A stretch of 64,000 nucleotides of DNA. Origin: Acidimicrobiales bacterium (lineage in GTDB: Bacteria > Actinomycetota > Acidimicrobiia > Acidimicrobiales > SZUA-35). Below the pieces are notes generated by a model. It had not been told where the DNA came from. It worked only from the letters and a program-made list of their open reading frames with translations, and did no database searches. Positions within the stretch are counted from its first letter, which is position 1. The number at the start of each line of letters is the position of its first letter. Where the stretch lies: positions 1,248,315 to 1,312,314 of the forward strand of contig CBDHES010000002.1 of the NCBI GenBank assembly GCA_965262175.1, given 5' to 3'. The position numbers and the translations under genes are program-made. Shown in pieces: positions 5,392 to 63,954 of the stretch.

Positions 5392-5889
5392 TCAGTACGG
5401 CTCGACGGCCGGGTGGTCATCGTCGCTGGCGCCGACCCGGCGGGCGGCGCTCTGACCGACCCGCCCGGTCGGCAGGTGGGCGCCGGCCTTGGCCAGCCCG
5501 AAGTGGTGCATGTTGCCGTAGACCGACTCGTAGGCCCCGGCCTCGACCCGGTAGGTCTCATGCCAGATGCCGACGTCGCCCGAGTCACCGATGGCCCGGT
5601 TGAACGCCCGCCACGCCGGCAGGTGGAGGTTGCCTCGGGCGTAGGCGTCGAGCTTGTCGAAGTCGGTCCAGTACTGGAGCGACATCGTCGTGCGACCGAA
5701 CCAGTTCTCGATGTGGAGACAGCCCAGCTCGGGGTCGGCCAGCAGCTCGGCCTGCATCGGGCGCATCGCCCGGGCCACCGGCAACCAACTCTTGACCTTC
5801 CACGGCTTGTTGATCCGCATCCCGATGAGGAAGACGACGAAGTCGCCGTCGACCGTGGCCGACCAACGGCCGGGGTGTACCTCGCTCAT
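5392..5889 (-). CDS. DUF4188-like small protein (monooxygenase-like fold), hypothetical
   Basis: 165 aa, protein-like composition. Resembles DUF4188 family members from memory (FVVFLIGMRINKPWK, WFGRTTMSLQYW). Needs an HMM check. Confidence 0.4.
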   Translation of the reverse strand: MSEVHPGRWSATVDGDFVVFLIGMRINKPWKVKSWLPVARAMRPMQAELLADPELGCLHIENWFGRTTMSLQYWTDFDKLDAYARGNLHLPAWRAFNRAIGDSGDVGIWHETYRVEAGAYESVYGNMHHFGLAKAGAHLPTGRVGQSAARRVGASDDDHPAVEPY

Positions 5890-5955
5890 GCCTCGACGCT
5901 ACGGCACGATCTTCGACCGATCATCATCCCCGGGTGCCATCCAGGGTCGTCCCGG

Positions 5956-5984
5956 GGGACGATCGTCCCGGCGGACGATCGTCC
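5956..5984. promoter_or_regulatory. Two tandem copies of the perfect 12-bp palindrome GGACGATCGTCC (centres ~16 bp apart) in the divergent promoter region between 5392..5889(-) and 6116..6949(+); candidate operator
   Basis: Direct reading: gggacgatcgtccc at ~5956-5969 and ggacgatcgtcc at ~5973-5984. A second direct repeat, cgtttcgaccg x2, lies at ~6058-6090. Confidence 0.35.
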
Positions 5985-6115
5985 CGGCGGCCCTCCGGCG
6001 GTGGTGTGCGACCCGGGCCGCCCGAACCGACCCGACCGGACCGGTCCGGGCGGCCGACGTTTCGACCGGCCGGCGTTTCGACCGACCGTCGGCCGGGCTG
6101 GAAAGATGAACCGCC

Positions 6116-6949
6116 ATGGGACGACTCGACGATCAGGTGACGGTGATAACCGGCGGGGCCAGCGGGATCGGCGCGGGCACAGCTCGCCGGTTCGTGGCGG
6201 AGGGGGCGAAGGTCCTCGTCGCCGACCTCGACGAGGACAAGGGGGCGGCCCTCGTCGATGAGCTTGGCGAGGCGGCGGCGTTCCTCCCGACCGATGTGTC
6301 GAAGGAGTCCGACGTGGCGGCGATGATCGCCGAGGCGACCGACCGCTGGGGCCGGCTCGACTGCCTGTTCAACAACGCCGGGTTCGGCGGGGCGCTCGGC
6401 CCGATCGCCTCGACGTCGGTAGAGGACTACGACCTCACGATGGACGTGCTCCTCAAGAGCGTCTTCCTCGGCATGAAGCACGCCGCCCCGGTGATGACCG
6501 CCCAGGGGTCGGGGTCGATCATCTCGACGGCCAGCGTGGCCGGGTTGCGGGCCGGTAACGCTCCCCACCTCTACAGCGTGGCCAAGTGCGCGGTGATCCA
6601 CCTGACCAAGTCGGTGGCGCTCGAGCTGGGCGAGCACGATGTCCGGGTCAACGCCATCTGCCCGGGGTTCATCGCCACCCCGCTGGCCGCCGGTCACCCC
6701 GGGGCCGACGAGGACCGGATCCAGAAGATGCGAGACGCCGGGGCCGGGGCCCAGGTGATGGGCCGGGTCGGCGAGCCGCTCGACATCGCCAACATGGCGC
6801 TGTTCCTGGCCAGCGAAGAATCACGGTGGATCACCGGCCAGGAGTTCGTCGTCGACGGAGGGTTCGAGGCCGGGCGCCCCTGGTCGCGGTGGCCGGCGTT
6901 CACCAAGATGGAGCGCCCGATTCGCCACCACCGACCCCCGGACCGCTGA
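6116..6949 (+). CDS. SDR family NAD(P)-dependent oxidoreductase
   Basis: TGGASGIG cofactor motif, NNAG, catalytic S...YSVAK (YxxxK), and a PG motif. Confidence 0.85.
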   Translation: MGRLDDQVTVITGGASGIGAGTARRFVAEGAKVLVADLDEDKGAALVDELGEAAAFLPTDVSKESDVAAMIAEATDRWGRLDCLFNNAGFGGALGPIASTSVEDYDLTMDVLLKSVFLGMKHAAPVMTAQGSGSIISTASVAGLRAGNAPHLYSVAKCAVIHLTKSVALELGEHDVRVNAICPGFIATPLAAGHPGADEDRIQKMRDAGAGAQVMGRVGEPLDIANMALFLASEESRWITGQEFVVDGGFEAGRPWSRWPAFTKMERPIRHHRPPDR

Positions 6950-6975
6950 CACCCCGCGTCGCTATCCTCGACGAC

Positions 6976-7500
6976 ATGGCCGTGACGCTCGACGCCGACC
7001 CCGACCGAGAACACCACGGGGCCGACGAGCGGGCACGAGAGATCGAGGCGGTTCTCGACGCCATGGAACACGCCGCCCCCGGAGCCAGAGCCGAGCACCT
7101 CGCCGGGGTCTACGTCTTGAACCGCCCCCACAGCCTCCATCAGCTGATCCAATCGATGCTGCTCCAGGCCGTGGCCGCCGTGCTCCCGCCGGCCGAAGCG
7201 GTCGTGACCGACTGCCGGGTCCGAGACGACACCATGTGGCTCGTGCCCGACCTGATCGTCGCCCCCCGGGTCCTGCTTGCCGAGGCGAAGCCGCAGCTGG
7301 AACCGGGCGAGGTGTCGCTCGTCGTCGAGATCCTGTCCCCGTCGACCGAGGCCACCGACCGCGGCGCCAAACGAGCCTTCTGCCAACGGCACCGAATCGA
7401 CTACTGGCTCGTCACCCCCACCACCGACGGCTGGACCCCGATCGAGCACCACCCCTACGGGGGCGGCACGATCCCGCCACCGGCCCCGCCGAACCCCTAG
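6976..7500 (+). CDS. Uma2 family (DUF820) PD-(D/E)xK restriction-endonuclease-like protein, paralog A
   Basis: Core reads VPDLIV...VVEILSPST...GAK...IDYWLV, matching the Uma2 D/E-K core. The real start is probably ATG 6976 (MAVTLDAD); the table ORF begins earlier at 6586. Confidence 0.6.
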   Translation: MAVTLDADPDREHHGADERAREIEAVLDAMEHAAPGARAEHLAGVYVLNRPHSLHQLIQSMLLQAVAAVLPPAEAVVTDCRVRDDTMWLVPDLIVAPRVLLAEAKPQLEPGEVSLVVEILSPSTEATDRGAKRAFCQRHRIDYWLVTPTTDGWTPIEHHPYGGGTIPPPAPPNP

Positions 7501-7517
7501 CCGGTACCCTCGACGAC

Positions 7518-8051
7518 ATGGCCGTGACGCTCGACGCCGACCCCGACCGGGAACACCACGGGGCCGACGAGCGGGCACGAGAGATCGAGGCGGTTCTCGA
7601 CGCCATGGAAGACGCCGCCCCCGGAGCCAGAGCCGAGCACCTCGCCGGGGTCTACGTCTTGAACCGCCCAGGGATCGTCCATCAGGCCACCGTGGCCGCG
7701 TTGATCGTCGCCCTCCGGCCCCTCATCCCGGCCGATCGGCGGGTGCTCCCCGATGTGCGGGTCGGCGCAGGAGAGGCCTGGATCGTGCCCGACCTCATCG
7801 TGGTGAGCGAGGCGACGGTGGCCGCGGCCCGGACGCCGGTCGAGCCCGGCCAGGTCGACCTCATGGTCGAGATCCTGTCCCCGTCGACCGAAGCCACCGA
7901 CCGCGGCGCCAAACGAGCCTTCTGCCAACGGCACCGAATCGACTACTGGCTCGTCACCCCCACCACCGACGGCTGGACCCCGATCGAGCACCACCCCTAC
8001 GGGGGCGGCACGATCCCGCCACCGGCCCCGCCCGTCGACCCGAGCACCTGA
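7518..8051 (+). CDS. Uma2 family (DUF820) PD-(D/E)xK endonuclease-like protein, paralog B (tandem mosaic duplicate of A)
   Basis: The first ~55 aa and last ~58 aa are nearly identical to paralog A at both nucleotide and protein level. The central ~65 aa diverge. Confidence 0.6.
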   Translation: MAVTLDADPDREHHGADERAREIEAVLDAMEDAAPGARAEHLAGVYVLNRPGIVHQATVAALIVALRPLIPADRRVLPDVRVGAGEAWIVPDLIVVSEATVAAARTPVEPGQVDLMVEILSPSTEATDRGAKRAFCQRHRIDYWLVTPTTDGWTPIEHHPYGGGTIPPPAPPVDPST

Positions 8052-8118: not shown

Positions 8119-9354
8119 TCAGCTGCGGGGCACCTCGCTCCAGTTGACGTCCTTGTCGACCCGAGGCTCGCCGGGGAGACCGAGCACCTGCTCGCCGAGG
8201 ATGTTGCGCATGATCTCGCTGGTCCCGCCCTCGATCGAGTTGGCCCGGACCCGGAGGAACCCGTGGCCGACCCCGTTCTCGGCCCCGGTGGCCGAGAGCT
8301 CCTCCGGCCGCCGGAAGGTGTAGTCGTAGCCGACCATGCCCTTGGCGCCGGAGAACTCGACGGCCTTGGCCATGATCGCCTGGTTCAGCTCGGCGAACGC
8401 CAGCTTGGCCACCGAACCCTCTGGTCCGGGGTTGCCGGCCCGACGGTTGGCGCCGGCCCGCATCCCGGTCAACCGGAGGACCTCGGCGTCGACCCACAGC
8501 CGCATCAGGTCATCGCGCCGGACCGCCGTCCGGTCCTCGACCGGCAGGCCGTTCCAGACGTCGACCAGGGAGGCGATCGTCCCCGATCCCCGCTTGGGGG
8601 CACCGCCGCTCCCGATCGCCGTCCGCTCGTTCATCAGGGTCGTCAACGAGACCCGCCACCCCTCGCCGACATCGCCGATCCGGTTGGCGTCGGGGATCCG
8701 CACGTCGGTCAGGTAGACCTCGTTGAACTCCGCCTCGCCGGTGATCTGACGGAGCGGTCGAACCTCGACCCCCGGGCTCGTCATGTCGAGGGCGAAGTAC
8801 GTCATCCCCTTGTGCTTGGGGGTGTCCGGATTGGATCGGGTGACGAGCATCCCCCAGTCGGCGAGGTGGGCGATCGTGTTCCACACCTTCTGCCCGTTGA
8901 CCACCCACTCCTCGCCATCGGGGACGGCCTTGGTGGCCAACCCGGCGAAGTCGCTCCCGGCACCGGGCTCGCTGAACAGCTGACACCACCGCTCCTCGCC
9001 GGTGAACATCGGGCGGAGGAACCGCCGCTTGTGCTCATCGGTGCCGTGGGTGTGGATGGTCGGGCCGGCCAGGTTCAGGAAGAACCCGGCGGCCTCGGCC
9101 GGCTTGGCTCCAGCCGCCCGGAGCTGCTCCTCGACCATCTTCTGCAGCTGGGGCCGGACACCGAGACCCCCGAACCCCTCGTCGAAGTAGACCCAGGCCA
9201 GGCCGGCGTCGTAGCGGTGACCTCGAAACTCGCGGTTCGACATCGTGGCCGGATCGTGGTTGGCCAGCAGCTCGGCGACAGCGTCGGCGACGACCTTCGC
9301 TTCGGAATCGGCCGGAACGTCGATGCCCGTTGACGGGTCGAGGGTGTTGGTCAT
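8119..9354 (-). CDS. Acyl-CoA dehydrogenase family protein
   Basis: ACAD N-terminal, middle and C-terminal domain signatures (FSEPGAGSD, VNGQKVWNT, GG.SEI.RNI.GE). Confidence 0.85.
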   Translation of the reverse strand: MTNTLDPSTGIDVPADSEAKVVADAVAELLANHDPATMSNREFRGHRYDAGLAWVYFDEGFGGLGVRPQLQKMVEEQLRAAGAKPAEAAGFFLNLAGPTIHTHGTDEHKRRFLRPMFTGEERWCQLFSEPGAGSDFAGLATKAVPDGEEWVVNGQKVWNTIAHLADWGMLVTRSNPDTPKHKGMTYFALDMTSPGVEVRPLRQITGEAEFNEVYLTDVRIPDANRIGDVGEGWRVSLTTLMNERTAIGSGGAPKRGSGTIASLVDVWNGLPVEDRTAVRRDDLMRLWVDAEVLRLTGMRAGANRRAGNPGPEGSVAKLAFAELNQAIMAKAVEFSGAKGMVGYDYTFRRPEELSATGAENGVGHGFLRVRANSIEGGTSEIMRNILGEQVLGLPGEPRVDKDVNWSEVPRS

Positions 9355-9432
9355 GGGCTCATTGTCCCGGACCGGACCCCGGTGCGCCAAGCCACGACGA
9401 CCGGTTGACGACGACCAACCGTGTGACCTCGC

Positions 9433-9897
9433 GTGCTATGGCGCAGCCCTATCCTCGACCGGGTGGATGGGGACCATCTCTCGCTCCCACCGAGACTCCG
9501 ACGGCTGACCCAGTCGGGGGCGTGGAGCGCGGCCAGCGGGCCGCCCACCGAGGTGGTGGCGGTCGTCGACCCCGACGAGGTCGACCTCAACCTCTACGGG
9601 CCGCCGTTCCGCTCTCTCGCAACCGAGCTGGTGGAGCAGGAGCTGGCCGACTCGACCTTCTGGGCCGATCACGGCGCGATCGACCAGCTCGATCCTGGGC
9701 GAGCCCTCCTGATCGGCGACTTCGGCCTGGGCTCGGACTCGCCGATCATCCTCGACTACCGCCAGGGGCCGGACCCTGTGGTTCGCAAACTGGCGTGGGT
9801 CACCGTCGACGAGGGGACCGGTTGGTCGATCCACAACTCCTGGCCGATGATCGCCCGGTCGTTCGACGAGCTCGCCGACCGGCTCGGTCTTCCCTGA
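9433..9897 (+). CDS. Hypothetical protein, possibly SMI1/KNR4 (SUKH-1) family
   Basis: 154 aa with a GTG start. The C-terminal pattern LLIGDFGLGSDSPIILDYRQG...VVRKLAW...ARSFDELADRL resembles SUKH immunity-type proteins. Assignment is weak. Confidence 0.3.
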   Translation: MLWRSPILDRVDGDHLSLPPRLRRLTQSGAWSAASGPPTEVVAVVDPDEVDLNLYGPPFRSLATELVEQELADSTFWADHGAIDQLDPGRALLIGDFGLGSDSPIILDYRQGPDPVVRKLAWVTVDEGTGWSIHNSWPMIARSFDELADRLGLP

Positions 9898-17508: not shown

Positions 17509-18837
17509 TCAGGTCCTCACCCAGACCCGCACGTAGTCGACCCGCATCGTCGACGGGACCTGGACCCCGTGGGTGGCGGTGAGGCCGTAGTTGAGGATCA
17601 GGTAGTGCGGGTCGGGGGTCAGCCCGTCGCTGTAGCTCCCGACCAGTACCCCGTCGTAGTAGAAGTCGAGCCGGCCTGCCTGACGGTCGACCCCGAAGGT
17701 GTGCCAGCCGGTGGCGTCGCCCCCCTCCACACAGGTCGTGCGGGACCGGTGGTCGGCCGACGAGCCCCAGTGGTAGCTGAAGCACGGCCAGTTGGTCGAC
17801 AGACCCTCCATGATGTCGATCTCGCCCGTCGAGGGCCACTGGGCGCCGTTGGTCCACACCGCCGGCCAATTGTGGAGCCGACCCCCCGCCCCCGGGAGGT
17901 ACACCCGGGCTTCGACGTAGCCCCGGGTGTAGGCGAACGAGTTGCGGGTGTTGACCAACCCCGAGACGTAGCCGGCCACCGATCCGTCACGCCGCCGACA
18001 GGACGGATCACCGGTCTGCTGGGCGGTCAGCTCGAGCGCGCCACCGACCACCCGGACCTGCGACGAGTTGTAGCAGCTGAGCTCATCGACGTTGACCGGG
18101 GCGGTGAACCCCGAGCCGCTGAACCAGCCGGCTTCCCACCGGGAGGTGTCGAGGCTCGAGCCGTTGAACTCGTCGGCGAACACGAGATCCCATCGGCCGG
18201 GAACGCCGACCGGGCCCGGTCCACCACCGGGAGGCTGGGTGGCCGGCGGCTGGGTCGTCGGCGGTTGGGTCGTCGGTGGACGAGTCGACGGCGGACGGGT
18301 GGTCGGCGCCTCGGTCGACGGCGGGTCGGTCGCCGGTGGCCGGCCCGGATCGGGGTCCGGCGCCGGCGGTGCAGGGGCGGCCCCGGTCGTGCCGGTCGTG
18401 GCCGGCGGTTCGCCATCGGTCGAGCCGGGCGGGCCGTCGGCCCCGGACCCGGGGCCGGGATCGGCCTCGGGAACGCCGGGCGGCCCTGCCTCGCCGGCCG
18501 CCGTCCCGGATGTCGGCGGGGCGACCTCGCCCTCGCCGACCGATGGTGGCGCGTCGCTACCGGCCGCTTCCCCGACGACACCAGCGGCCCCCGAGCCGTC
18601 CACACCCTGGGCCGCTCCCGATGCGGGATCGACCGACGGTGGTTGGCCGGGAGCGGTCACCGTGTCGTAGGCCGCCGTCTCGTCGTCGACCACCCGCATC
18701 CGATCCGGCTCCTCGGCCTCCACACCGGCCGAGATCGCCTGCTGGGTCCGGGCTGCAGTCCCGCCGAGGACCGCCCCGAGCGCGAAGGTGGCCAGGATGC
18801 CGACGGCAATGATCATCCGGGTGATGGTCGGGCGCAT
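17509..18837 (-). CDS. Glycoside hydrolase family 16 (laminarinase/beta-glucanase-like), signal-anchored, with a Pro/Thr-rich linker
   Basis: Catalytic motif EIDIME (E-x-D-x-x-E). N-terminal hydrophobic anchor MRPTITRMIIAVGILATFALGAV, then a long P/T/G-rich spacer before the catalytic domain. Confidence 0.8.
   Translation of the reverse strand: MRPTITRMIIAVGILATFALGAVLGGTAARTQQAISAGVEAEEPDRMRVVDDETAAYDTVTAPGQPPSVDPASGAAQGVDGSGAAGVVGEAAGSDAPPSVGEGEVAPPTSGTAAGEAGPPGVPEADPGPGSGADGPPGSTDGEPPATTGTTGAAPAPPAPDPDPGRPPATDPPSTEAPTTRPPSTRPPTTQPPTTQPPATQPPGGGPGPVGVPGRWDLVFADEFNGSSLDTSRWEAGWFSGSGFTAPVNVDELSCYNSSQVRVVGGALELTAQQTGDPSCRRRDGSVAGYVSGLVNTRNSFAYTRGYVEARVYLPGAGGRLHNWPAVWTNGAQWPSTGEIDIMEGLSTNWPCFSYHWGSSADHRSRTTCVEGGDATGWHTFGVDRQAGRLDFYYDGVLVGSYSDGLTPDPHYLILNYGLTATHGVQVPSTMRVDYVRVWVRT
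18170..18420. repeat. Imperfect tandem nucleotide repeats (ggttgggtcgtcggcgg-type units) encoding the TTQPP/PT-rich linker of the GH16 protein
   Basis: Direct reading: ggctgggtcgtcggcggttgggtcgtcggtggacgagtcgacggcggacgggtggtcggc. The protein reads PPTTQPPTTQPPATQPP. Confidence 0.5.
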
Positions 18838-59196: not shown

Positions 59197-59616
59197 ATGA
59201 CCATGAGCACCACCACCATCGACGCCGCGGCCATCGCCGCCGACATCGCCGCCCGGTTCGAGCGGGCCTGGAACGCCGGCGACGGCGCGGCCTACACCGA
59301 ACCGCTGACCCCCGACGCCGACTACGTGACCATCCAGGGTCTCCACCTCGACGACCGGGACGACATGACGGCCGGCATCGCCGAGCTGTACGCCACGATC
59401 TACCGGGACAGCACGATGGCGATCGAACCGACACGGGTTCGTCTCCTCGGCCCGGGAACGATCGTGGCACAGCTCCGCCACGTCCTCACCTGCCCGGTCG
59501 GTCCGCTGGCCGGCACGACCACGACCCTGGCGACGGTCGTGATCGTCGACACCGACGACGGGTGGCGGGTCGCCGCCCTCCACAACACCGTCGTCGCCCC
59601 TCCCCCAGAGGAGTAG
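59197..59616 (+). CDS. SnoaL-like/NTF2-fold (DUF4440/SgcJ-like) protein
   Basis: 139 aa. ERAWNAGDGAAY...WRVAALHNT pattern. Stop-start overlap with the upstream gene (TGACATGA). Confidence 0.55.
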   Translation: MTMSTTTIDAAAIAADIAARFERAWNAGDGAAYTEPLTPDADYVTIQGLHLDDRDDMTAGIAELYATIYRDSTMAIEPTRVRLLGPGTIVAQLRHVLTCPVGPLAGTTTTLATVVIVDTDDGWRVAALHNTVVAPPPEE

Positions 59617-59635
59617 CCGAACCGCCCCGACAAAG

Positions 59636-59713
59636 CAGCCGCCCTAGCGGGCGTGCCGCCGGGCAGCCGCCCTAGCGGGCGTGCCGCCGGGCAGCCGCCC
59701 TAGCGGGCGGCTG
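59636..59713. repeat. 2.8 tandem copies of a 28-bp unit (cagccgccctagcgggcgtgccgccggg) between convergent genes; the last copy forms a 9-bp-stem hairpin (cagccgccc-tagc-gggcggctg); bidirectional terminator-like
   Basis: Direct reading. The hairpin overlaps the TAG stop of the tsaC-like gene. Confidence 0.5.
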
Positions 59714-60677
59714 CCTTGGTGAGGCGGTCGAGGACGGCGGGGCGGAGGGGACCCTTCGGCGGGGGGACGGCGAGGAGTCGCTCGACCCCGAGCCGGTCGG
59801 CGTCCCGCAAGGTCTCGTACAACCGGGCGGCGTAGCCCGCGGCGTCGGCCGGCAACCGCCACGACGGTTGGTGGTCGACCACCGCGGGAGCCATCACCCC
59901 GACGGTGTCGTCCAGTTCACCGGCCCGTTCGAGGGCAGCGATCTTCGCCGCCAACCGTCCCCGGTCGGTCACCACCTCGACCGCGGCGTCGGGGGCGTAG
60001 TGGGACGCCAACATCCCCGGGGCTCGGGCCGGGCCGTCCCGGCCGTCGACCACCACCTCTCCGAGGGCATCCTCCAGCTGGAGCCGGGTGATCGCCCCGG
60101 GGCGGAGGAGCGCTGGGCGGGGTCCGATGAGGTCGACGATCGTCGACTCGATCCCCACCGTCGTCGGCCCACCGTCGAGCACGATGTCGACCAGGCCGTC
60201 GAGATCGTCGAGCACGTGGGCCGCGGTGGTCGGGCTGACCCGGCCGAAGGTGTTGGCCGATGGGGCCACGACCGCCGAACCGAACCCCGACAGCAAGGCC
60301 AGGGCGACCGGATGGTCGGGCACCCGGAGCCCGATCGTCGCCTTCCCCCCGACCGCCTCCGAGGAGGCCCGGGCCGTCCGGGGGACGATCACGGTGAGCG
60401 GACCGGGCCAGAACGCCTCGGCCAGCGCCATGGTCCGGGTGGCGATCGCACCGGACAGGCGACCCCAGTCGGCCACGTGGTCGGCCGATGCCAGGTGGGC
60501 GATCAGCGGGTGTCCGACCGGGCGTCCCTTGGCGGCGAAGACCCGGGCCGAGGCGGGTCCGCTGGCGGCGTCGGCTCCCAGCCCGTACACGGTCTCGGTC
60601 GGGAAGGCGACCAGGCCCCCCGCCCGCAACATCTCGATCCCCAGCTCGACCCGCTCGGTGACGACGGTGACCGTCAC
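59700..60677 (-). CDS. tsaC: L-threonylcarbamoyladenylate synthase (Sua5/YwlC/TsaC family, with Sua5-type C-terminal domain)
   Basis: GGLVAFPTETVYGLGADA and SANTFGRVSPT motifs. GTG start at 60677 overlaps the mnmA stop (GTGA). Confidence 0.8.
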   Translation of the reverse strand: MTVTVVTERVELGIEMLRAGGLVAFPTETVYGLGADAASGPASARVFAAKGRPVGHPLIAHLASADHVADWGRLSGAIATRTMALAEAFWPGPLTVIVPRTARASSEAVGGKATIGLRVPDHPVALALLSGFGSAVVAPSANTFGRVSPTTAAHVLDDLDGLVDIVLDGGPTTVGIESTIVDLIGPRPALLRPGAITRLQLEDALGEVVVDGRDGPARAPGMLASHYAPDAAVEVVTDRGRLAAKIAALERAGELDDTVGVMAPAVVDHQPSWRLPADAAGYAARLYETLRDADRLGVERLLAVPPPKGPLRPAVLDRLTKAAAR

Positions 60678-61798
60678 GTCCCCGCCGCCGACGACCCCGA
60701 CGCGGCGGCCATCGCCCCGCCGACGACCAGGTCGCCGTCGTAGGCGACGATCGACTGGCCGGCCGCCACCCGCTGCTGGGGCTCGTCCCACCGAATGGTG
60801 CTGCCATCGAGGCGCCCCGGCCGGGTCGGACCGTGGGCCGAGCACTGGAACGCCAGCGGCCCGTCGACGGGACCGTGTGACCAGGCGACGTCGGTCACCG
60901 GCTGCTCCTCGACCAGGAGCGCCCCCCGGTGACCGACGGTGACGGTCCGGGCTGCGGTGTCGACGTCCACCACGTAGCGGCGCTGGGCGTCGCCGCCGAG
61001 ATCGAGGCCCCTCCGCTGGCCGATCGTGACGAGCTGCACCGACGGGACCTCCCCCACCCGGTTCCCGTCGAGATCGACGACGGTGGCGGGAGCGAGGGGG
61101 ATTCGATCGCCGAGGAACGCCTGCCGGCCGCCGACCGAGTGGATGAAGCAGACGTCCTGGCTGTCGGGCTTGTCGGCCGTCACCAGACCGTGGGCCGCCG
61201 CCAGCCGTCGGACCTCGTCCTTGGTCAGGTCACCGATGGGGAGCAGGAGCCGGGTCAACTGGGCCTGGTCGAGCATGTGGAGCACGTAGGACTGGTCTTT
61301 GGCCCGGTCGGCTCCTCGGCCGATCCGGGCCACGCCGCCGTCGTCGATCACGACCCGGGCGTGGTGGCCGGTGGCCACGGTGGTGAAGCCGAGCGCGTCG
61401 GCTCGGCGGAGCAGCTTGTCGAACTTGATGTGACGGTTGCACTCGACGCACGGGTTGGGGGTCAACCCGTCGGCGTGGGCCCGGACGTAGGGCTCGACGA
61501 CGTGGGCGTCGAAGTCGTCGCCGAAGTTGAACACGTGGTGGTCGATACCGATGCGGCGGGCCGCCCGCCGGGCGTCGTCGACGTCGGACACCGAGCAGCA
61601 ACCGGAGTCGCTCTCGCCACCCCAGAGCTTGAGGGTGACCCCGACGACGTCGTGGCCGGCCTCGACGAGGAGGGCGGCGGCGACCGACGAGTCGACCCCG
61701 CCCGACATCGCCACCATCACCGGCCCGGTCGGCCCGGTCGGCCCCTCGGCCGGGGGTGTCCTGCCGGGCCCCGTCGACGGGGTCGGGTCGGTGGTCAT
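60674..61798 (-). CDS. mnmA: tRNA 2-thiouridine(34) synthase (tRNA-specific 2-thiouridylase)
   Basis: PP-loop VAMSGGVDSS and the catalytic Cys pair (NPCVECN...CF). ATG 61798 overlaps the upstream desulfurase stop (ATGA). Confidence 0.85.
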   Translation of the reverse strand: MTTDPTPSTGPGRTPPAEGPTGPTGPVMVAMSGGVDSSVAAALLVEAGHDVVGVTLKLWGGESDSGCCSVSDVDDARRAARRIGIDHHVFNFGDDFDAHVVEPYVRAHADGLTPNPCVECNRHIKFDKLLRRADALGFTTVATGHHARVVIDDGGVARIGRGADRAKDQSYVLHMLDQAQLTRLLLPIGDLTKDEVRRLAAAHGLVTADKPDSQDVCFIHSVGGRQAFLGDRIPLAPATVVDLDGNRVGEVPSVQLVTIGQRRGLDLGGDAQRRYVVDVDTAARTVTVGHRGALLVEEQPVTDVAWSHGPVDGPLAFQCSAHGPTRPGRLDGSTIRWDEPQQRVAAGQSIVAYDGDLVVGGAMAAASGSSAAGT

Positions 61799-62970: not shown

Positions 62971-63954
62971 TTACTGGCGACCACGGATCGGCCCGGCCGG
63001 GCCGGGCCACGGAGCGCTCGGCGGCGCGACCGGCGGCGGCGCACCACCCCACGGGCCGCCAGGAGGACCACCCCACGGGCCGCTCGGGGGCGCGACCGGC
63101 GGCGCCGCACCACCCCACGGACCGCCAGGAGGACCACCCCACGGGCCGCCCGACGGGCCGCCCGACGGCGCGACCGGCGGCGCCGCACCACGCCACGGGC
63201 CGCCCAGGGGCGGGGGAGGGTGGGACGGCGGGGCGGCGCCGGGGCGGTTGCCGGGCAACGGCGGCCCGACACCGTGGACGACCGGCGGGGGGACCCCATC
63301 GGGCCAGTGCCGAGCCTGGTGGGCGTTGAGCACCGCGAGGAGGAACGGCTCGGCCCCGAGGCCCCTCGGCCGGACGGCCCCGATGGCCACCGCCACCCGG
63401 TCGGCGACCTGCTCGGTCATGGCGTACCGGGCCTCGGGCCGCATCTCGGTGATCCGCAGCATCAGCTCGCGGATCAGGGCGTACTGCCGGGCGGTGAGGG
63501 CGCCGGTGTCGAGGACACCGGCCAGCCCGGCGGTCTCGGCCGTGGTCGGGAAGTAGACCGGCCACTGGCCGACCCGGGGCACCCGGATCACGATCGTCCC
63601 CGCCGCCAGGTCGCCGAGGCGCTGGCTCCGGGCGGTCAGCAGTGCGAACGCCAGCGCCAGCAGACCGCCCGGGCTGGGGACGAAGAAGTCGAAGGTCGCG
63701 ATCATCGACCGGATGGCGCTGTGGCGGAGGCGGACGGGGCCGCCCTCGGTGGTCAGGACCCGGATCCCGAGAGCCGCCTTGCCGATCGTCCGCCCGTTCC
63801 ACCAGGTCTCGAGGATGATCGGATAGCCGTAGAAGATGGCGAACGCCAGGACGACGAGCACGATCGTGGCCAGCGTGGTGCTGGCGGCGGACACGATCCC
63901 GGTGAGGATCAGCCCGATGAACAGGGCCGTGAACTGGATGGTGACGTCGAGCAT
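62971..63954 (-). CDS. RDD family membrane protein with a C-terminal Pro/Gly/Trp-rich repetitive tail; N-terminus may extend beyond the window
   Basis: RDD-domain pattern (TIGKAALGIRV...DLAAGTIVIR) with TM helices. The tail repeats GGPWGGAAPPVAPPSGPW. Confidence 0.6.
   Translation of the reverse strand: MLDVTIQFTALFIGLILTGIVSAASTTLATIVLVVLAFAIFYGYPIILETWWNGRTIGKAALGIRVLTTEGGPVRLRHSAIRSMIATFDFFVPSPGGLLALAFALLTARSQRLGDLAAGTIVIRVPRVGQWPVYFPTTAETAGLAGVLDTGALTARQYALIRELMLRITEMRPEARYAMTEQVADRVAVAIGAVRPRGLGAEPFLLAVLNAHQARHWPDGVPPPVVHGVGPPLPGNRPGAAPPSHPPPPLGGPWRGAAPPVAPSGGPSGGPWGGPPGGPWGGAAPPVAPPSGPWGGPPGGPWGGAPPPVAPPSAPWPGPAGPIRGRQ
63010..63250. repeat. Imperfect ~60-nt tandem repeats encoding the GGPWGG/APPVAPP tail of the RDD protein
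   Basis: Direct reading: repeated caccccacgggccgccaggaggaccaccccacgggccg units. Confidence 0.5.

What the first reader, a model, noticed from the sequence alone, without database searches (positions are those of the whole stretch)
6961..8051. Mosaic tandem duplication of Uma2-family PD-(D/E)xK endonuclease genes with identical ends and a swapped central cassette
Two adjacent ~530-bp genes share near-identical 5' ~170 nt and 3' ~180 nt, including the surrounding ribosome-binding context (ctcgacgacATGgccgtgacgctcgacgcc). Their central ~190 nt, encoding ~65 aa between the N-terminal helix and the PD...E.K catalytic core, are unrelated at nucleotide level. This pattern (conserved flanks, variable middle) is what recombination-driven cassette switching or recent gene conversion produces. 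Uma2/DUF820 proteins are poorly characterised putative nucleases. A diversifying central region would most plausibly be a specificity determinant.
Basis: seen in the sequence. Interest (0 to 1): 0.55.

Follow-up and report, generated by a model that had tools for sequence, protein, structure and literature searches.

The report
Mosaic tandem pair of Uma2 genes
Two neighbouring copies of a poorly understood nuclease-like gene have almost identical ends but very old, different middles, which is the usual footprint of recombination between gene copies and not a new switching system.

Summary
Gene A (6976-7500) and gene B (7518-8051) are intact, co-oriented Uma2/PF05685 genes in a 542-bp tandem repeat. 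Compared base by base, gene positions 1-152 differ at 2 sites, 349-515 at 1 site, and 153-348 at 92 of 196 sites (Fisher p 5.5e-42). The centres are not unrelated. They align without gaps at 53% nt identity (34±4% for random in-frame pairs) and 35% aa identity, and both keep the catalytic His and PD motif. Synonymous divergence is about 0.05 in the ends and about 1 in the centre, so the centre did not diverge in place after a recent duplication. Trees disagree by segment. In the C-terminal end A and B are sisters (99-100% bootstrap). In the centre they are not (1-3%), and B's centre groups with a different clade (76-90%). All other related loci recovered carry one copy, including a syntenic SDR-Uma2-ACAD locus. 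The best reading is a lineage-specific tandem pair made mosaic by homologous recombination or gene conversion. Nothing supports programmed cassette switching: no further cassettes, no recombinase, direct orientation, no DGR signature. A role of the centre in specificity is plausible but untested. Tandem Uma2 paralogues and partial gene conversion are both already known, so interest is low to moderate.

The parts
6951..7492 (+). Repeat unit 1 of the 542-bp tandem duplication. It starts 2 nt after the stop codon of the SDR gene and contains gene A.
   Evidence: the repeat finder families D1 and D2 have a spacing of 542.
6976..7500 (+). Gene A, a Uma2-family PD-ExxS...K nuclease-like protein of 174 aa. 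Catalytic residues are H55 (7138-7140), D92 (7249-7251), E118 (7327-7329) and K132 (7369-7371). Its last two codons and stop are supplied by the duplication junction.
   Evidence: 49.0 bits; AF2 pLDDT 76.5; fold matches 3ot2, 9y1l, 6okh, 1wdj. Residue mapping follows PMC551604.
6966..7127 (+). 5' near-identical block of copy A: 10 nt upstream of the ATG plus codons 1-51. It has 2 mismatches to 7508-7669.
   Evidence: dS 0.055.
7128..7323 (+). Divergent centre of copy A (codons 51-116). It covers the core helix with H55, the first core strands, the PD strand and the loop before the ExxS strand. This is the 'A-type' centre, loosely allied to P0003 and P0011.
   Evidence: An exhaustive phmmer search found only itself and P0011 (41% identity).
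7324..7490 (+). 3' near-identical block of copy A (codons 117-172). It has 1 mismatch to 7866-8032.
   Evidence: dS 0.047 and dN 0.
7491..7517 (+). Duplication junction: the end of gene A (N-P-stop) plus the 17-nt spacer. It is partly similar to the SDR-A intergenic region. It carries GGTACCCTC, which is also found upstream of the single-copy orthologue in L001.
7518..8051 (+). Gene B, a Uma2-family protein of 177 aa. Catalytic residues are H55 (7680-7682), D92 (7791-7793), E118 (7869-7871) and K132 (7911-7913).
   Evidence: 49.9 bits; AF2 pLDDT 77.2.
7670..7865 (+). Divergent centre of copy B. This is the 'B-type' centre, which groups with the P0004/P0005/L008/P0012-14 clade.
   Evidence: bootstrap 76-90%.
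8033..8051 (+). Unique 3' tail of gene B (VDPST-stop) beyond the repeat. It is presumably the original 3' end of the gene.
6936..6950 (+). 3' end of the SDR gene. It shares a CCG-rich patch with the 3' end of the Uma2 gene (7478-7492) and is the likely site of the illegitimate crossover that created the duplication (inference).

Best explanation
A locus that carries one Uma2-family nuclease-like gene between an SDR gene and an acyl-CoA dehydrogenase gene in the nearest available relative carries a 542-bp tandem pair here. The pair is a recombinational mosaic. The two 196-nt centres belong to two anciently separated sequence types of this small subfamily. The two ends (about 162 and 167 nt) were made nearly identical recently by gene conversion between the copies, that is, concerted evolution restricted to the ends. 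The highly diverged centre would block heteroduplex extension, and may additionally be kept different by selection. This would explain why the breakpoints sit at the edges of the two most conserved motifs, VYVLNRP and VEILSPST. Both genes are intact and both carry the complete predicted catalytic set (H55, P91-D92, E118, K132). They are predicted to adopt the same restriction-endonuclease-like fold. The organism therefore most likely makes two isoforms that share an N-terminal hairpin and a C-terminal half and differ in the first half of the core around the active site. Shown: the mosaic, the saturated synonymous divergence of the centre, the conflict between segment trees, the intactness of both copies, and the single-copy state elsewhere. 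Inferred: the direction and order of the recombination events, a functional difference between the isoforms, and nuclease activity itself. As a side-effect, the two pairs of direct repeats make the array prone to RecA-mediated collapse into a single A-type or B-type gene, or to amplification.
For: Mismatches cluster sharply: 92 of 196 in the centre against 3 of 319 in the ends, Fisher p 5.5e-42. dS is 0.055 and 0.047 in the ends and 0.97 in the centre. Of the 23 residues conserved in the centre, 9 use different codons. GC3 is native in both centres. In segment trees, the C end puts A and B together at 99-100% bootstrap. The centre puts them together at only 1-3%, and groups B with the P4/P5/L8 clade at 76-90%. 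L001 is syntenic (SDR tail 84% aa, ACAD 86% aa, ACAD dS 0.51) and holds a single Uma2 gene. All other related loci (L002-L011) are also single copy. The 15 nt just beyond the perfectly identical upstream block match at only 10 of 15. This is as diverged as the centre and favours an older duplication with later conversion of limited tracts. Both proteins score equally against Pfam, keep the catalytic residues and give equivalent AF2 models. The fold matches all solved Uma2 structures.
Against: An old duplication requires the second copy to have been lost in the L001 lineage and in every other sampled lineage. Two separate conversion tracts with almost the same age (2 synonymous differences each) are needed, whereas one whole-unit duplication would explain both ends at once. 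The upstream argument rests on 15 nt. The A-type grouping (A + P3 + P11) has only 57-58% bootstrap. Only one genome carries the pair, so there are no population data. Neither expression nor activity of either copy is known.
Confidence: 0.55

Rival explanations
1. A recent duplication of the whole 542-bp unit made both copies identical. The centre of one copy was then replaced by homologous recombination with a divergent Uma2 gene (another paralogue in the genome or incoming foreign DNA), with crossovers in the conserved VYVLNRP and VEILSPST motifs.
For: A single duplication explains why both ends have the same small divergence (dS 0.055 and 0.047). It also explains why the syntenic relative has one copy. 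The breakpoints coincide with the most conserved motifs of the subfamily. B's centre is phylogenetically foreign to the A/P3 lineage. The family is reported to undergo horizontal transfer (PMC551604; PMC3424549).
Against: No donor exists in the window. None was found in 5.8 billion clustered proteins or 1.84 billion representatives. The nearest centre to A is 41% identical, and the nearest to B is 46%. The homology available for crossovers in the motifs is short. The junction-proximal upstream 15 nt match at only 10 of 15, which is not expected so soon after a duplication.
Confidence: 0.3
2. The two centres diverged in place after a recent duplication, through very fast positive selection on a specificity-determining region.
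For: The centre is the least conserved segment in the subfamily: dN against the syntenic orthologue is 0.62-0.65, compared with 0.075 for the neighbouring ACAD gene. dN/dS in the A-B centre is 0.67.
Against: Synonymous sites in the centre are saturated (dS 0.97 against 0.05 in the ends), and 9 of 23 conserved residues use different codons. Transversions outnumber transitions 70 to 22. B's centre groups with other lineages and not with A.
Confidence: 0.03
3. The pair is a programmed diversity system (cassette switching, phase variation or a diversity-generating retroelement) that swaps the central module to change nuclease specificity.
For: The architecture of conserved ends and a variable middle resembles HsdS target-recognition-domain shuffling (my own knowledge). 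Uma2 proteins are weakly similar to a PADLOC defence candidate, PDC-S03.
Against: There are only two copies, both full-length and in direct orientation. No further cassette occurs in 64 kb. No recombinase or reverse transcriptase lies among the neighbours. The mismatches are not A-specific. Recombination between direct repeats deletes rather than switches. No related locus has more than one copy.
Confidence: 0.03
4. It is an assembly artefact: two alleles of a single-copy gene in a mixed population were stitched into a tandem array.
For: Repeats of about 165 nt are near short-read length. Only one contig in the public collections carries these proteins.
Against: The junction 7491-7517 is a unique sequence that would not arise from a simple allelic bubble. 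The ends differ at 3 sites, as expected of two real copies. The source contig is 3.08 Mb, which implies a high-contiguity assembly.
Confidence: 0.05

Closest known systems
Tandem and clustered paralogues of the Uma2 / COG4636 / DUF820 (PF05685) family in cyanobacteria and Thermus
   Same: It is the same protein family with the same PD-ExxS...K active-site variant and conserved His. Tandem duplications were catalogued by Feder & Bujnicki 2005 (PMC551604). Makarova et al. [quoted passage not shown] Function is equally unknown in those cases.
   Different: This pair comes from a high-GC (72%) genome with actinobacterial-type neighbours. It belongs to a very small subfamily of about a dozen sequences in 5.8 billion. 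The sharp mosaic of identical ends with an ancient centre was not described in the papers I read.
Partial gene conversion / concerted evolution between bacterial paralogues, for example the PE_PGRS duplicated pair and other M. tuberculosis loci (PMC1762029, PMC13061034), prokaryotic concerted evolution (PMC6053082), and tufA/tufB (my own knowledge)
   Same: The paralogues are more alike than orthologues over part of their length. There are sharp tract boundaries and the segment phylogenies conflict.
   Different: Here the homogenised parts are the two ends and the unconverted part is the middle. The direction and donor cannot be determined from one genome.
Type I restriction HsdS subunits with variable target-recognition domains flanked by conserved regions (my own knowledge)
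   Same: Conserved flanks that can act as recombination substrates surround a variable module in a nuclease-associated protein.
   Different: HsdS domains are known DNA-recognition modules. Switching systems use inverted copies plus a recombinase or several silent copies. None of this is present here, and the variable Uma2 segment includes part of the catalytic core itself.
Chimeric genes formed by deletion between paralogues (PMC13626634, abstract seen)
   Same: Direct repeats inside adjacent paralogues are substrates for recombination that yields a single hybrid gene. That is the predicted fate of this array.
   Different: The collapse has not happened in this genome. The single-copy state in L001 could be either the ancestral or the collapsed form.

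Membership tests
Uma2 / PF05685 (COG4636, DUF820) | Score above the Pfam gathering threshold | tested here: met
   49.0 and 49.9 bits against a cut-off of 27
Uma2 / PF05685 (COG4636, DUF820) | PD-EXX-K active-site variant with conserved His (H43, D83, E111, K127 of all3650; PMC551604) | tested here: met
   H55, P91-D92, E118 and K132 are invariant in A, B and all relatives aligned
Uma2 / PF05685 (COG4636, DUF820) | Restriction-endonuclease-like fold matching solved family members | tested here: met
   By sequence profile: 6okh at 3.6e-20 and 9y1l at 4.3e-18. Foldseek with the model of A: 3ot2, 9y1l, 6okh and 1wdj as top hits, probability 1.00. The model of B was not fold-searched; it has the same secondary-structure order
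Uma2 / PF05685 (COG4636, DUF820) | Nuclease activity | not testable with these tools
   No member has a published activity in the papers read
Gene conversion / concerted evolution between paralogues | Paralogues more similar to each other than to orthologues over part of the gene, with significant clustering of differences | tested here: met
   The ends are 99% identical between A and B, against 59-89% aa identity to the syntenic orthologue. Max chi-square is 171 against a null maximum of 27.8
Gene conversion / concerted evolution between paralogues | Phylogenetic conflict between segments | tested here: met
   Support for an (A,B) clade is 99-100% in the C end and 1-3% in the centre
Gene conversion / concerted evolution between paralogues | Identified donor and direction of conversion | tested here: inconclusive
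   No donor found. Only one genome carries the pair
Programmed cassette switching (shufflon, silent-cassette or DGR type) | Additional silent cassettes or inverted copies | tested here: not met
   tblastn of the window finds only A and B, both in direct orientation
Programmed cassette switching (shufflon, silent-cassette or DGR type) | Adjacent site-specific recombinase or reverse transcriptase; adenine-specific mutation pattern | tested here: not met
   The neighbours are patatin, monooxygenase-like, SDR, ACAD, an unknown protein and an AAA-domain regulator. Mismatches are spread over all bases
Restriction-modification system | Cognate methyltransferase next to the nuclease | tested here: not met
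   No methyltransferase among the six neighbouring genes
PADLOC candidate defence system PDC-S03 | Significant match to the system's protein models | tested here: inconclusive
   E-values are 4e-9 to 1e-3 and cover only part of the models. No description of the system was found in the literature

The most novel reading that the evidence does not exclude
Uma2 nucleases are modular. The first half of the core (helix with His, first core strands, PD strand, following loop) would be an exchangeable specificity module that exists as ancient allelic classes. These classes would be shuffled between lineages by recombination in the conserved VYVLNRP and VEILSPST motifs. This genome would have captured two classes in tandem, possibly to form heterodimers or to cover two targets. 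The evidence does not exclude this. B's centre and, weakly, P0011's centre are placed incongruently with their ends. The locus has also diverged far more than its neighbours.
Probability: 0.1. Interest if true: 0.6.

Novelty: new member of a known kind. Interest (0 to 1): 0.3.

Why it matters
It gives a clean, quantified example of segment-limited concerted evolution in a bacterial tandem gene pair. It also marks residues 52-116 of this Uma2 subfamily as the part that tolerates or needs change while the catalytic residues stay fixed. The Uma2 family is large and widespread and has no demonstrated function. A natural pair that differs only in one defined module is a ready-made domain-swap experiment for asking what that module recognises. 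Beyond that, the locus is ordinary: tandem Uma2 paralogues and gene conversion are both well known.

Tried and rejected
- Both scans of GTDB species genomes, one with protein A and one with a 5-sequence alignment, found no relative. The source organism stayed unidentified.
- An exact look-up of protein A in the contig index found nothing, and the cluster look-up gave no accession or name.
- The single metagenome scan gave only three loci, two of them identical to P0004.
- The three word-indexed protein searches and one exhaustive HMMER search with A's centre found no candidate donor for either centre.
- NCBIfam had no model for either protein.
- No paper mentions PDC-S03.
- The sigma-70 promoter and intrinsic-terminator scan found nothing useful around the pair.
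- RNA folds of the junction, the A upstream region and the B-ACAD spacer were no better than shuffles.
- Rfam and tRNA scans of the window were empty.
- A DGR-type origin of the variable centre was rejected because mismatches are not adenine-specific.
- In-place fast evolution was rejected because synonymous sites are saturated.
- Positive selection could not be assessed for A against B because dS is saturated. In the less diverged P4/P5/L8 clade, dN/dS is ≤ 0.25 in all segments.

Full report
**What is there.** The region holds two complete ORFs on the + strand. Gene A is 6976-7500 (174 aa) and gene B is 7518-8051 (177 aa), separated by 17 nt. Both match Pfam Uma2 (PF05685, 'putative restriction endonuclease') at 49.0 and 49.9 bits against a gathering score of 27. 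They sit between a short-chain dehydrogenase gene (6116-6949, +) and a convergent acyl-CoA dehydrogenase gene (8119-9390, -). The wider neighbours are a patatin-like protein, a monooxygenase-like protein, an unannotatable 154-aa ORF and a large AAA-domain regulator. There is no methyltransferase, recombinase, reverse transcriptase or obvious antitoxin. The window is 71.7% G+C.

**Checking the observation.** The two genes are in register at a period of 542 bp, and they are the longest direct repeats in the window.

| Gene positions | Length | Mismatches |
|---|---|---|
| 1-152 | 152 nt | 2 |
| 153-348 | 196 nt | 92 |
| 349-515 | 167 nt | 1 |

- A two-breakpoint maximum chi-square scan picks exactly 153-348. 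Its chi-square is 171 against a maximum of 27.8 in 300 permutations, and Fisher p is 5.5e-42.
- Perfect identity extends 10 nt upstream of each ATG. The next 15 nt match at 10 positions.
  - The centres are homologous, not unrelated. They align in frame with no gap at 53% identity, against 34 ± 4% for random in-frame pairs from genes of this window, and share 23 of 65 residues.
  - The centre is the first half of the nuclease core, not a linker ahead of it.

**Anatomy of the proteins.** Feder and Bujnicki (PMC551604) defined the family's active site as PD-EXX-K plus a conserved His (H43, D83, E111, K127 in all3650). These correspond here to H55, P91-D92, E118 and K132. All are invariant in A, B and every relative aligned.

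- AlphaFold2 models of A and B have the same order of secondary-structure elements and similar confidence (pLDDT 76.5 and 77.2), with the centre at 80-92.
- The model of A matches the four solved Uma2 structures best (3ot2, 9y1l, 6okh, 1wdj), followed by NucC and Hjc-type nucleases. The sequence profile also finds 6okh and 9y1l. None of these structures has an assigned function.
- The divergent centre (residues about 52-116) covers the core helix 53-69 with H55, strands 74-77 and 81-83, the PD strand 93-97 and the loop up to the ExxS strand.
- The shared ends supply the N-terminal helix and hairpin, E118, K132 and the C-terminal strands.
- Neither copy looks like a pseudogene. Copy A has only exchanged the last five codons of the ancestral 3' end (VDPST) for two codons that come from the junction.

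**Age of the segments.** Nei-Gojobori estimates are as follows.

| Segment | dS | dN |
|---|---|---|
| 5' end | 0.055 | 0.009 |
| Centre | 0.97 | 0.66 |
| 3' end | 0.047 | 0 |

- Nine of the 23 residues conserved in the centre use different codons.
- Transversions outnumber transitions 70 to 22, and the mismatches involve all four bases.
- Both centres have native GC3 (0.91 and 0.92).
- The centre therefore cannot have diverged in place after a recent duplication, and a diversity-generating retroelement is excluded.

**Relatives.** This subfamily is very small.

- Three searches of 5.8 billion clustered proteins and one metagenome scan returned about a dozen members.
- An exhaustive HMMER search of 1.84 billion representatives with A's centre alone returned only itself and P0011, at 41% identity.
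- The most informative relative is L001. It has the same SDR-Uma2-ACAD arrangement, with the SDR tail 84% and ACAD 86% identical in protein and ACAD dS at 0.51. It carries one Uma2 gene.
- Every other related locus recovered also holds a single copy.
- Some of those loci lie in mobile or defence-type surroundings: McrBC plus an ISL3 transposase in L009, a PIN toxin gene in L010, and bacA fragments in L011.
- The tandem state is therefore specific to the lineage of the window.

**Conflict between segments.** Against the syntenic orthologue P0003, the three segments behave very differently.

| Segment vs P0003 | aa identity | dN | Comment |
|---|---|---|---|
| N-terminal end | 85-89% | 0.05-0.07 | pS 0.30, like the genomic background |
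| C-terminal end | 59% | 0.31 | |
| Centre | 34-36% | 0.62-0.65 | about 8 times the ACAD value of 0.075 |

- Neighbour-joining trees with 500 bootstraps place A and B together in the C-terminal end (99-100%).
- In the centre they are together in only 1-3% of replicates. There B groups with the P0004/P0005/L008/P0012-14 clade (76-90%), and A groups loosely with P0003 and P0011 (57-58%).
- A's centre is as far from B's (35%) as from a remote outgroup (29-31%).
- The two centres therefore represent sequence types that separated before the sampled subfamily diversified. The ends coalesce at about one tenth of the divergence from the L001 organism.

**How the pair arose (inference).** The repeat unit runs from about 6951, two bases after the SDR stop codon, to 7492.

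- The 3' end of the SDR gene and the 3' end of the Uma2 gene share a CCG-rich patch (CC.CCGG.CCGC.GA.ACCCC, 16 of 21). This is a plausible site for the illegitimate crossover that made the duplication.
- Two histories fit the mosaic.
  - An older duplication, or capture of a second allele, followed by recent gene conversion confined to the ends. The diverged centre would block heteroduplex extension.
  - A recent whole-unit duplication followed by replacement of one centre from an unknown donor.
- I slightly prefer the first. The 15 nt just outside the perfectly identical upstream block are as diverged as the centre. Also, B's upstream spacer keeps the GGTACCCTC seen upstream of the L001 orthologue while A's does not.
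- The second history explains the equal age of both ends and the single copy in L001 more economically.
- One genome cannot decide between them. I give them about 0.55 and 0.30.

**What it probably does (inference).** Uma2 proteins are predicted Mg-dependent nucleases of unknown substrate.

- The literature proposes selfish elements, solo toxins or restriction-like defence genes. It already records tandem duplications and 'cassettes of paralogous genes' (PMC551604, PMC2701414, PMC3424549, PMC9716671).
- A and B hit the PADLOC candidate PDC-S03 only weakly.
- The pair most likely yields two isoforms with a common scaffold and catalytic residues but a different surface around the active site.
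- Whether that changes substrate or partner specificity is untested.
- In the P4/P5/L8 clade, where divergence looks vertical, all segments are under purifying selection (dN/dS ≤ 0.25). The centre's dN is only 1.3-2.5 times that of the ends. The centre is therefore less constrained, not demonstrably under diversifying selection.

**Cassette switching.** The evidence does not support a programmed switch.

- There are only two full-length, direct copies, with no further cassette in 64 kb and no recombinase nearby.
- Crossing-over between the 162-nt or the 167-nt direct repeats would delete one copy or amplify the array. It would leave a B-type gene, or an A-centre gene with B's tail.
- That instability is a testable prediction. 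It may also explain single-copy relatives.

**Artefact check.** Three observations argue against a mis-assembled allelic bubble: the unique junction sequence, the three point differences between the ends, and the 3.08-Mb source contig.

**Verdict.** This is a real and statistically unambiguous mosaic tandem pair of Uma2 genes produced by homologous recombination or gene conversion. It is a good illustration and a convenient natural domain swap for a family with no known function, but it is not a new kind of system. Novelty: new member of a known kind. Interest: 0.3.

Noticed in passing
window 5890-6115 (repeats at 5947-5990 and 6051-6088): The divergent intergenic region between the monooxygenase-like gene (5392-5889, -) and the SDR gene (6116-6949, +) holds about 2.8 tandem copies of a 16-nt palindrome (TCGTCCCGGCGGACGA, 96% matches). 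It also holds 2.4 copies of a second 16-nt unit (CGGCCGACGTTTCGAC). These look like operator sites for a regulator.
   Followed up: partly
window 59635-59709: A perfect 28-nt tandem repeat of 2.7 copies (GCAGCCGCCCTAGCGGGCGTGCCGCCGG) lies between two convergent ORFs (59197-59616 + and 59700-60845 -). Each unit contains a GC-rich hairpin (GCCGCCC-TAG-CGGGCGGC), so this may be a stack of terminator-like stem-loops.
   Followed up: partly
window 63007-63216: Three copies of a 66-nt unit (92% and 76% identical to the first) lie inside overlapping long ORFs. This is probably a proline/glycine-rich repeat in a protein.
   Followed up: no
window 18233-18340: A 15-nt unit (GGCTGGGTCGTCGGC) is repeated 7.2 times at 75% matches. 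It is in frame for a 5-residue peptide repeat if coding.
   Followed up: no
L009 1-5480; L010 1120-2229; L011 1732-3566: Single-copy relatives of the Uma2 pair sit in mobile or defence-type contexts. In L009 the gene lies directly after McrB/McrC genes and an ISL3 transposase. In L010 it lies next to a PIN-domain gene. In L011 it lies between a bacA gene and a bacA fragment, as if inserted there.
   Followed up: partly
window 6976-8051 versus L001 134-634: Between the window and the syntenic L001 locus, the Uma2 gene has diverged far more than its neighbours. The centre's dN is 0.62-0.65 and the C end's is 0.31, against 0.075 for the adjacent acyl-CoA dehydrogenase. The N-terminal end tracks the background. 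The orthologous comparison is therefore itself mosaic.
   Followed up: yes
window 9433-9897 (+): A 154-aa ORF between the acyl-CoA dehydrogenase gene and the large AAA-domain regulator has no Pfam match.
   Followed up: no
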